Both the position numbers and the translations under genes were made by a program. A stretch of 64,000 nt of DNA from NCBI GenBank assembly GCA_019057815.1, contig JAHLWR010000013.1, positions 32,001-96,000 on the forward strand. The letters are read 5' to 3'. Each line of letters opens with the position of its first letter. The first letter of the stretch is position 1. The notes beneath the pieces were generated by a model. It was given only the letters and a program-made list of their open reading frames with translations, was not told the DNA's origin and ran no database searches. Below, piece by piece: positions 15,687 through 16,062 of this stretch. Source of the stretch: Candidatus Heimdallarchaeota archaeon (lineage in GTDB: Archaea; Asgardarchaeota; Heimdallarchaeia; Heimdallarchaeales; Heimdallarchaeaceae).

Positions 15687-15709
15687 TTCGTCTTTCTCTC
15701 AACAGTGTT

Positions 15710-15830
15710 TTCAGGTTCGGAATGAGTCTGAGTGTTACTCCTTCACTATGGCCGCGACGTATCGCAGCTAATAACCCTTCCCAAGACCTCGCGGATCTTA
15801 GTACCAAGCCACACGTGGAAGGACTTAACT
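15710..15830 (-). rRNA. rrf: 5S rRNA, circularly permuted gene (canonical 3' half 15830-15762, UACG linker 15761-15758, canonical 5' half 15757-15710)
   Basis: Minus strand: AGTTAAGTCCTTCCACGTGTGGCTTGGTACTAAGATCCGCGAGGTCTTGGGAAGGGTTATTAGCTGCGA-TACG-TCGCGGCCATAGTGAAGGAGTAACACTCAGACTCATTCCGAACCTGAA. Helices I-V, loop C (CATTCCGAAC), loop E (GGTA/GAA) and the GCGA tetraloop can all be drawn. Confidence 0.9.
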
Positions 15831-16062
15831 TTCCTGTGCATCCGGAACGCGTCCAGATACTTACTGACATCGTTGAGATGTGACTAACTGGGAGAAAGGT
15901 TGTTTCCTTAAAAACATTTCTTTTAACACTATTTAGTGCAAGAGTTTAAAGCTATTTTTAGACGATTCTAAGAGAATTTAAGTTAGTATTTCACTTTTCG
16001 AACAATACAACATCAATAGCGAACATTTAAAGACACGAGCAATTTATTTTAAACCAGCTTAG

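What the first reader, a model, noticed from the sequence alone, without database searches (positions are those of the whole stretch)
15692..15898. Circularly permuted 5S rRNA gene in an archaeal chromosome
Seen: on the minus strand the canonical 3' half of 5S rRNA (AGTTAAGTCCTTCCAC...GCGA...GCTGCGA, 15830-15762) comes before the canonical 5' half (TCGCGGCCATAGTGAAGGA...CATTCCGAACCTGAA, 15757-15710). The normal termini are fused by a UACG (UNCG-type) tetraloop capping a 7-bp helix I (GCTGCGA/TCGCGGC). The new break falls at the two-A bulge of helix III. Helix II (GTGAAGGA/TCCTTC-C-AC), helix III (TCAG/CTGA), loop E and helices IV-V are all intact, which suggests selection on structure rather than a decayed fragment. 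The flanks pair with each other (CTCAACG.TGT / ACA.TGTTGAG), and the 5' flank carries a 9-bp hairpin (GTATCTGGA/TCCGGATGC). Known: permuted 5S rRNAs have been reported in some organelle genomes, and permuted tRNA genes in red algae and Thermofilum. I do not know of a gene-level permuted 5S in a prokaryote. Inference: standard 5S models would give only partial hits, so such genes may be routinely missed in this lineage.
Basis: partly seen in the sequence, partly recalled or inferred. Interest (0 to 1): 0.93.

Follow-up and report, generated by a model that had tools for sequence, protein, structure and literature searches.

The report
Back-to-front 5S rRNA gene (Heimdall archaeon)
This Heimdall-group Asgard archaeon encodes its working 5S ribosomal RNA with the back half before the front half, between tRNA-splicing-type cut signals that should rejoin it into a small ring. 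This explains why no 5S gene could be found in these close archaeal relatives of eukaryotes.

Summary
On the minus strand, 15830-15762 is the 3' part of a 5S rRNA, 15761-15758 is a UACG loop closing helix I, and 15757-15710 is the 5' part.

- Rfam's 5S model gives 18.8 bits on the genomic order (threshold 38).
- The re-ordered sequence gives one full-length match (50.2 bits) to a profile of canonical Asgard 5S genes.
- The own genome (95% complete) has no canonical 5S.
- The same order occurs in all 24 other genomes searched of its family, including the closed genomes of Ca. Heimdallarchaeum aukensis and endolithica. About 80 of 151 Asgard genomes have it, never together with a canonical gene.
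- Covariation supports every helix (96.7% of cells paired, against 26-45% in slid controls).
- In 49 of 50 distinct loci the leader and trailer form a bulge-helix-bulge (BHB) splice motif.
- Standard cuts, after A15831 and A15710, would give a 121-nt RNA with a canonical helix III junction, most likely a closed ring.

Two EndA paralogues and RtcB are present.

This family also carries a 30-nt leader hairpin that splits the motif. This scan found the same phenomenon before on other Asgard DNA. I found no paper describing it.

The parts
15906..15914 (-). TATA-box-like promoter element (UUUUUAAGG), about 30 nt upstream of the leader helix
   Evidence: Read from the sequence. Copies in other genera (G005a, G002a) have AACAUUUUUAAA at the same distance. 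The other paralogue type has a conserved AAUAGUAAAGAUUAAAAA. Promoter function is inferred.
15868..15877 (-). Leader strand of the outer leader-trailer helix (h): CUCAACGAUG
   Evidence: Pairs with 15707-15698. All 10 aligned pairs show changes on both sides across 30 loci, and 90% of cells are paired. It is present in the minimum-energy fold of the precursor.
15864..15867 (-). Leader UCAG, a copy of the 5' strand of helix III. It can pair with CUGA 15714-15711 (alternative BHB-1).
   Evidence: CAG is conserved in 28 of 30 family loci. Its role is unresolved.
15838..15860 (-). Leader hairpin: 9-bp stem GUAUCUGGA/UCCGGAUGC with loop CGCGU. It is a family-specific insert of about 30 nt between the outer helix and the central BHB helix.
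   Evidence: Stem supported by covariation: 5 of 8 pairs change on both sides and 96.7% of cells are paired. Absent from the other families, where the outer helix abuts H.
15833..15836 (-). Central BHB helix H, leader strand: CAGG
   Evidence: Pairs with CCUG 15715-15712. A 4-bp H at this place is present in 49 of 50 distinct loci, in 9 or more different sequence combinations.
15830..15832 (-). 5' bulge AAA. Predicted cut after A15831, so the mature RNA starts at A15830.
   Evidence: The cut position follows the rule for archaeal BHB motifs (between bulge nucleotides 2 and 3), which is established knowledge and not tested here.
15762..15830 (-). 5S rRNA 3' part: outer helix III 3' strand, helix II 3' strand, helices IV and V, loop E, helix I 3' strand
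15758..15761 (-). UACG tetraloop joining the native 3' and 5' ends of 5S (caps helix I)
   Evidence: The loop is UACG, UUCG, UGCG, UAUG or CUCG in the family. Helix I covaries: 3 of 7 pairs change on both sides and 99.5% of cells are paired.
15710..15757 (-). 5S rRNA 5' part: helix I 5' strand, loop A, helix II 5' strand, helix III with loop C (CCGAAC), ending CCUGAA
15712..15715 (-). Central BHB helix H', CCUG. It overlaps the 3' strand of helix III, CUGA 15714-15711.
15709..15711 (-). 3' bulge AAA. Predicted cut after A15710. Ligation to A15830 gives ...CCUGAA|AGUUAAG..., a 121-nt ring.
   Evidence: The junction restores the canonical length of helix III with its AA bulge (alignment). The cut and the ligation are inferred.
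15698..15707 (-). Trailer strand of the outer helix: CACUGUUGAG
15681..15685 (-). Oligo-T run, the likely archaeal terminator
   Evidence: Read from the sequence. In most relatives a T-run follows the trailer helix directly. Function is inferred.

Best explanation
This is the organism's functional 5S rRNA gene, written in circularly permuted order.

Shown:
- One transcription unit of about 200 nt on the minus strand holds, in order: leader, 5S 3' part, a UACG loop that seals helix I, 5S 5' part, trailer.
- All 5S helices are kept by selection.
- It is the only intact 5S in the genome.

Inferred:
- Leader and trailer pair, and a leader tetramer (CAGG) pairs with CCUG at the end of the 5S 5' part. 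This gives a 4-bp helix flanked by two AAA bulges, a bulge-helix-bulge (BHB) motif.
- The tRNA-splicing endonuclease cuts after A15831 and after A15710.
- RtcB joins the ends.
- The product is a 121-nt covalently closed 5S rRNA in which the AA bulge of helix III is rebuilt at the ligation site. This ring is what enters the ribosome.

In this family a 30-nt leader hairpin lies between the outer helix and the central helix, so the motif sits at a three-way junction.
For: Gene identity
- Two swapped half hits become one full-length hit after re-ordering.
- RF00001 scores only 18.8 bits on the native order.
- No other 5S is found in the own genome with RF00001 or with a canonical-Asgard HMM run without filters.

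Selection on structure
- 96.7% of cells are paired against 26-45% in slid controls, and 31 of 51 pairs change on both sides, across 30 family loci.
- 92.7% of cells are paired and 24 of 33 pairs change on both sides across 19 diverse lineages.
- The window copy has 0 private changes at otherwise invariant columns. The second copy has 6.

Distribution
- All 24 other genomes searched of the family have the permuted order, including the two closed genomes.
- A permuted model gives strong hits in about 80 of 151 Asgard genomes. A canonical 5S is found in 48. No genome has both.

BHB motif
- A 4-bp H is kept in 49 of 50 distinct loci through 9 or more sequence combinations, for example CAGG/CCUG, CGGG/CCCG, CCAG/CUGG, CAAG/CUUG and CCGC/GCGG.
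- The bulges are 3 nt long.
- 18 loci have a contiguous hBHBh' motif.
- The standard cut rule restores the canonical junction CCUGAA-AGUUAAG.

Machinery and setting
- Two EndA paralogues and RtcB are encoded.
- A promoter-like element lies upstream and a T-run lies after the trailer.

Precedent
- The Thermoproteus SRP RNA gene is permuted, circularised and cut by the splicing endonuclease (PMC4731332).
- E. coli ribosomes tolerate a circularly permuted 5S rRNA, there linked into 23S rRNA (PMC7283268, abstract).
Against: - Expression, cut sites, ligation and presence in ribosomes are therefore all inferred.
- In this family the outer helix does not abut H. The leader strand carries a 30-nt insert, so the motif is not a textbook continuous hBHBh'. 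Its inner helix h' is weak (GUU against GAA).
- A competing pairing (leader UCAG with CUGA) is nearly isoenergetic. It would predict other products, of 122 or 153 nt.
- A recent study states that circularisation is known for archaeal 16S and 23S but not 5S rRNA (PMC12918454, background).
Confidence: 0.62

Rival explanations
1. Linear permuted 5S. The precursor is cut at or near the two bulges, by EndA or other nucleases, but the ends are not joined. The ribosome carries a linear 5S whose ends lie in helix III and whose helix I is capped by UACG.
For: The gene order, the structure and the covariation fit this equally well. The organelle permuted 5S rRNAs reported in PMC4267664 may be linear (not checked in that paper). 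Helix III pairing (UCAG/CUGA plus GU/AC) could hold the two ends together.
Against: BHB cleavage leaves a 2',3'-cyclic phosphate and a 5'-OH, which are the substrates of RtcB (established knowledge). RtcB is present. Excised BHB products in archaea (tRNA introns, pre-16S and pre-23S, Thermoproteus SRP RNA) are ligated (PMC4731332, PMC12918454). The cuts restore the canonical spacing exactly, which matters only if the ends are joined.
Confidence: 0.2
2. Two-step splicing. The leader UCAG/CUGA motif (BHB-1) is cut first and gives a 153-nt ring (15861 to 15709) that keeps the hairpin. The ring then refolds so that CCUG/CAGG and the hairpin form an intron-type BHB. A 32-nt piece is removed to give the 121-nt ring.
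For: NCAG next to the outer helix is conserved in 28 of 30 family loci. It gives a 4-bp helix with 3-nt bulges on both strands and the hairpin as flanking helix. In the ring the hairpin would serve as h' of a complete intron-type motif.
Against: The first pair of that helix is unpaired in 7 of 28 loci. The 'a' copies of both Ca. Heimdallarchaeum species lack NCAG and have a contiguous one-step motif instead. The one-step reading needs fewer events.
Confidence: 0.12
3. The ring is only an intermediate. It is re-opened at the UACG loop to give a linear 5S with canonical ends, as permuted tRNAs are matured.
For: This is the pathway of permuted tRNA genes in Cyanidioschyzon (own knowledge; cited in PMC4267664). 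Circular pre-16S rRNA is re-linearised (PMC12918454).
Against: The linker is only a 4-nt loop of the stable UNCG type, directly closing a covarying 7-bp helix. There is no spacer and no RNase P or tRNase Z type signal. Loop sequence and length vary between lineages (UAUUAU, AAAGGA), as expected for a cap and not for a processing site.
Confidence: 0.05
4. Non-functional relic or assembly artefact, with a canonical 5S elsewhere that failed to assemble.
For: The own genome is a 48-contig draft at 95% completeness. rRNA genes often fail to assemble.
Against: The closed genomes of the same family have only permuted copies, and their authors could not find a 5S (PMC8813620). Compensatory evolution is strong. 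The window copy has no private change at invariant columns, whereas the decayed paralogue shows what a relic looks like.
Confidence: 0.01

Closest known systems
Permuted, circularised SRP RNA gene of Thermoproteus tenax (Plagens et al. 2015, PMC4731332)
   Same: A universal structured non-coding RNA whose canonical gene seemed to be missing. The gene is permuted. [quoted passage not shown]
   Different: The RNA is different (5S rRNA, a ribosome component). The phyletic spread is far wider, at about half of the sampled Asgard genomes. In this family the motif is split by a 30-nt leader hairpin. Circularity is not shown here.
Circularly permuted tRNA genes (Cyanidioschyzon merolae; Thermofilum pendens). 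Own knowledge; the first is cited in PMC4267664.
   Same: The 3' half is encoded before the 5' half. Leader and trailer form a BHB motif. The mechanism is cutting followed by ligation.
   Different: In tRNAs the circle is an intermediate that is re-opened at a spacer between the native ends. Here the native ends are sealed by a 4-nt tetraloop with no spacer.
Permuted organelle 5S rRNAs (Valach et al. 2014, PMC4267664)
   Same: The 5S rRNA is in permuted order and is missed by standard models.
   Different: Those are in organelle genomes. No BHB or splicing-endonuclease pathway is involved there, and the break positions were not compared here.
BHB processing stems of archaeal 16S and 23S rRNA, with circular pre-rRNAs or circular and permuted mature 23S (PMC12918454, PMC7758197)
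   Same: A leader-trailer helix carrying a BHB motif, with EndA cleavage and ligation to a circle.
   Different: Those genes are in canonical order, so the permutation or circle arises only at the RNA level. 5S was explicitly not included among circularised rRNAs (PMC12918454).
Canonical 5S rRNA (Rfam RF00001)
   Same: All helices I-V are present, together with loop A (CCAUAG), loop C (CCGAAC) and the loop E region. After re-ordering the length is 117 nt plus the 4-nt cap.
   Different: The gene order is permuted at the AA bulge of helix III, and helix I is closed by a loop. The score on genomic order is 18.8 bits against a threshold of 38.

Membership tests
5S rRNA (RF00001) | Score at or above the curated threshold (38 bits) on the genomic sequence | tested here: not met
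   18.8 bits, plus a second fragment hit of 13.6 bits. The best hit in the own genome is the same locus.
5S rRNA (RF00001) | Full set of helices I-V and conserved loops in canonical connectivity | tested here: met
   Met after in-silico re-ordering. One hit covers positions 4-114 of a canonical Asgard 5S profile at 50.2 bits. All helices are supported by covariation.
5S rRNA (RF00001) | It is the cell's 5S: no other 5S gene, and present in ribosomes | tested here: inconclusive
   No canonical copy in the own genome or in the closed relatives. Presence in ribosomes is not testable with these tools.
BHB-dependent permuted non-coding RNA genes (permuted tRNA, Thermoproteus SRP RNA) | The 3' part is encoded upstream of the 5' part, with the native ends linked | tested here: met
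   The linker is the UACG loop at 15761-15758.
BHB-dependent permuted non-coding RNA genes (permuted tRNA, Thermoproteus SRP RNA) | The new ends lie in an hBHBh' motif: a 4-bp helix between two 3-nt bulges on opposite strands, flanked by helices | tested here: inconclusive
   The 4-bp H and the two AAA bulges are present in the window and in 49 of 50 loci. 18 relatives have a contiguous motif. In the window the outer helix is separated from H by a 30-nt hairpin on the leader strand, and h' is weak.
BHB-dependent permuted non-coding RNA genes (permuted tRNA, Thermoproteus SRP RNA) | Splicing endonuclease and RtcB ligase are encoded | tested here: met
   Two EndA paralogues (97 and 47 bits to PF01974, each also matching PF02778) and RtcB (459 bits).
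BHB-dependent permuted non-coding RNA genes (permuted tRNA, Thermoproteus SRP RNA) | RNA with the ligated junction (circular form) exists | not testable with these tools
Organelle permuted 5S rRNA (Valach et al. 2014) | Encoded in a mitochondrial or plastid genome | tested here: not met
   The locus lies in an archaeal chromosome. Closest named relatives are Ca. Heimdallarchaeum genomes. Genome of 3.7 Mb with 32.8% G+C.

The most novel reading that the evidence does not exclude
The ribosomes of Heimdallarchaeia, and of most other Asgard lineages, contain a covalently closed circular 5S rRNA as their normal form. It is made from a permuted gene by the tRNA-splicing machinery. In Heimdallarchaeaceae the circularisation signal has in addition acquired an intron-like 30-nt hairpin that must be discarded. 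This would be a 5S rRNA with no free ends, in the closest prokaryotic relatives of eukaryotes.
Probability: 0.55. Interest if true: 0.9.

Novelty: new variant of a known kind. Interest (0 to 1): 0.85.

Why it matters
- 5S rRNA is universal, and its gene is considered easy to find. Yet the authors of the closed Heimdallarchaeum genomes reported that none could be predicted (PMC8813620). This locus resolves that gap. It also gives a model (R1, or a simple re-ordering) with which 5S genes can be annotated in roughly half of the Asgard genomes sampled.
- If the product is a ring, it extends BHB-dependent gene permutation from tRNA and SRP RNA to a core ribosomal RNA.
- It would also add 5S to the list of circular rRNAs in archaeal ribosomes.
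- The canonical and permuted forms split the phylum cleanly in this sample, so the gene order may serve as a discrete character for Asgard phylogeny.

Tried and rejected
- Infernal on the re-ordered sequence: not possible, because the tools take only stored sources and cmsearch is not in the script box. I replaced it with an nhmmer profile of 18 canonical Asgard 5S genes.
- First apparent canonical hit in relatives: G027, 38.4 bits. On inspection it is only the 5' part of another permuted gene followed by a terminator.
- Three pattern hits in MAGs labelled Deltaproteobacteria: chance matches inside a protein-coding gene, not bacterial permuted 5S genes.
- Thermodynamics to choose between the competing pairings of CUGA: all lie within 0-5 kcal/mol, so it is uninformative.
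- A contiguous 3-bp h (GGU/ACC) next to H occurs in several members of the largest genus but not in the window. Rejected as a general feature.
- Literature searches for a permuted or circular archaeal 5S found only the organelle paper, work on circular 16S/23S rRNA and other unrelated papers.

Full report
**What is there**

On the minus strand the window holds, in transcript order:
- a TATA-like element (15914-15906);
- a leader whose first part, CUCAACGAUG (15877-15868), pairs with the trailer CACUGUUGAG (15707-15698);
- UCAG (15867-15864);
- a 9-bp hairpin (15860-15838);
- CAGG (15836-15833) and AAA (15832-15830);
- the 3' part of a 5S rRNA (15830-15762);
- a UACG loop (15761-15758);
- the 5' part of the 5S (15757-15710), ending CCUGAA;
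- further A residues, the trailer, and a T5 run (15685-15681).

**Is it a 5S?**

- Rfam's RF00001 finds nothing at its threshold in the window.
- With relaxed settings it gives a forced 18.8-bit alignment and a 13.6-bit fragment for helix III.
- I built a profile from 18 distinct canonical 5S genes of the same phylum (loci). The native sequence gives two half hits in swapped order: profile positions 44-115 first (27.6 bits), then 3-49 (9.9 bits).
- The re-ordered sequence (15757-15710 followed by 15830-15762) gives a single hit over positions 4-114 at 50.2 bits, E 7e-18. Fifty shuffles give nothing.
- Across the whole own genome (3.74 Mb, 95% complete) this profile, run without filters, finds only this locus and one paralogue, both as half hits. 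RF00001 finds only this locus.

**Selection on structure**

The same order is present in all 24 other genomes searched of the family, and two copies are common.
- On 30 family loci, RNAalifold predicts de novo the leader-trailer helix, the leader hairpin, helices II, IV/V and III, and helix I closed by the tetraloop.
- For my explicit structure, 96.7% of cells are standard pairs, against 26-45% when partners are slid by 1-3 columns. 31 of 51 pairs change on both sides, and no shuffle of 500 reaches any measure.
- On 19 diverse lineages the figures are 92.7% and 24 of 33 pairs.
- Helix I changes from GCUGCGA/UCGCGGC to GCUGCGU/ACGCGGC, GCUGGAU/AUCCGGC and GCUGCAU/AUGCGGU. The loop stays UNCG-like in the family.

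**Who and how widely**

- An exact-pattern scan of one genome per prokaryotic species returned 52 stretches. Three are chance hits inside a protein-coding gene. The other 49 are Asgard or unclassified-archaeon MAGs: those with a lineage label read Heimdall-, Kari-, Hod-, Hermod-, Thor- or Promethearchaeota/-ati, and 12 read only 'archaeon' or 'uncultured archaeon'.
- The two closed genomes of the family are CP084166.1 (Ca. Heimdallarchaeum aukensis) and CP084167.1 (Ca. H. endolithica). Each has two permuted copies and no canonical one. Their authors wrote that 5S genes 'could not be predicted' (PMC8813620).
- In an even sample of 151 genomes of the phylum, RF00001 passes its threshold in 48 true cases, confined to six families.
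- A covariance model of the permuted form (R1) gives full-length hits of 44-155 bits in about 80 genomes of all the other families.
- R1's weak hits (27-40 bits) fall in the canonical-5S families, and all but two (both in family f13) lie on a canonical 5S locus. No genome has both forms.

**How it probably works**

- In relatives without the hairpin, the leader reads h1-H-AAA-GUUAAG and the end reads GAAC-H'-3 nt-h2. H/H' is a 4-bp helix and h1/h2 a contiguous helix of 5-11 bp. This is a textbook bulge-helix-bulge motif.
- H covaries with H' (CGGG/CCCG, CCAG/CUGG, CAAG/CUUG, CCGG/CCGG, CCGC/GCGG, CGAG/CUCG). A 4-bp H is found in 49 of 50 distinct loci.
- In the window H is CAGG/CCUG with AAA bulges on both strands.
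- With the usual cut between bulge nucleotides 2 and 3 (established knowledge, not tested here) the excised RNA runs from A15830 to A15710. Joining its ends gives ...CCUGAA-AGUUAAG..., exactly the canonical helix III with its AA bulge, in a 121-nt ring.
- The genome encodes two divergent EndA paralogues (26% identity, each with N- and C-terminal domains) and RtcB. Two paralogues suggest a heteromeric enzyme, a type known to accept relaxed motifs. That point is an inference.

**What is special in this family**

- A 30-nt insert (the hairpin and its flanks) lies on the leader strand between h1 and H. The 3' bulge therefore sits at a three-way junction, and h' is weak (GUU against GAA).
- Next to h1 there is a conserved NCAG that copies the 5' strand of helix III. 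It could pair with CUGA and form a second, mutually exclusive motif with the hairpin as flanking helix. That would give a 153-nt ring from which a 32-nt intron-like piece would then be removed.
- Constrained folds place the three pairings of CUGA within 0-5 kcal/mol, so energy does not decide.
- The 'a' copies of both Ca. Heimdallarchaeum species lack NCAG and have a contiguous 5-bp h (GUGGU/ACCAC) beside CAGG/CCUG. This favours the one-step reading.

**The second copy**

G000:C43:238938-239086 is the orthologue of an intact copy in the sister genome. It has six private changes at columns invariant in the other 29 loci:
- a change at alignment column 83, just 3' of helix II;
- a deletion in UUGGGAA;
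- a broken helix I pair;
- a change at column 174 in loop C;
- CCGAAC changed to CUGAAC;
- CUGA changed to CUAA, which also destroys H.

It scores 104.6 bits with R1, against 145.8 for the window copy. It looks like a decaying paralogue. The window copy has no such change and is the working gene.

**Limits**

I therefore have no direct evidence of expression, ends or circularity for this locus.

Earlier notes of this scan report the same gene layout in many Asgard genomes. For a related genome they report public RNA showing a 121-nt cycle without the leader insert. I treat that as an untested lead. It agrees with the one-step product predicted here.

**Literature**

Searches of the held library found permuted 5S rRNA only in organelles (PMC4267664), and circular or permuted archaeal rRNA only for 16S and 23S (PMC12918454, PMC7758197). 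The closest precedent in mechanism is the permuted, circularised SRP RNA of Thermoproteus (PMC4731332). E. coli ribosomes can use a circularly permuted 5S rRNA, there linked into 23S rRNA (PMC7283268, abstract).

**Verdict**

- The gene is real, functional and lineage-wide: about 0.97.
- BHB excision and ligation to a ring is the best-supported mechanism: about 0.6.
- Novelty: a new variant of a known kind, namely a BHB-dependent permuted RNA gene, here for 5S rRNA.

Noticed in passing
G000:C43:238938-239086 (L061:339-487): Second permuted 5S copy in the own genome. It has six private changes at otherwise invariant positions, including loss of the BHB central helix. It is probably a decaying paralogue. 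Its orthologue in the sister genome (G001:C83) is intact.
   Followed up: yes
window 15494-15583 (+): tRNA-His(GUG) with an insert of about 16-19 nt in the anticodon loop, probably a BHB intron. It converges on the 5S unit and ends about 100 nt from the 5S terminator.
   Followed up: partly
window 15864-15867 (-), and alignment A1 columns 29-32: Conserved NCAG in the leader, directly after the outer helix strand. It copies the 5' strand of helix III and could form an alternative BHB with CUGA. Its role is unexplained.
   Followed up: partly
L166/L167 (G000:C38:129362-132214): The RtcB match is split (profile positions 1-50 and 49-426) by about 1.5 kb inside one 1015-aa open frame. This suggests an intein in the ligase gene.
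   Followed up: no
L164:1453-2061 and L165:1444-2088: Two divergent tRNA-splicing endonuclease paralogues (26% identity), each with N- and C-terminal domains. This may be a heteromeric enzyme of the kind that accepts relaxed BHB motifs.
   Followed up: partly
L096 (JBHLQZ010000003.1): A MAG labelled Candidatus Thorarchaeota (QM1B.68) carries a permuted 5S with the Heimdallarchaeaceae-type leader hairpin, nearly identical to genus g3 loci. The label or the binning may be wrong.
   Followed up: no
L103, L111, L128 (MAGs labelled Deltaproteobacteria, UBA5205, UBA8936, UBA5756): Pattern matches that lie inside a protein-coding gene. By eye the gene is a TypA/BipA-like GTPase. These are chance hits, not bacterial permuted 5S genes.
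   Followed up: partly
Family f13 hits of model R1 (e.g. G128:C251:2542-2712, G057:C158:18823-18993): Permuted-model hits that are longer (about 170 nt) and score lower (44-50 bits). These genes may carry extra inserts or introns.
   Followed up: no
L049 and L051 (copy a of Ca. Heimdallarchaeum aukensis and endolithica): These copies lack the NCAG element. They have a contiguous 5-bp helix (GUGGU/ACCAC) next to CAGG/CCUG, which makes a one-piece BHB within the same family.
   Followed up: partly
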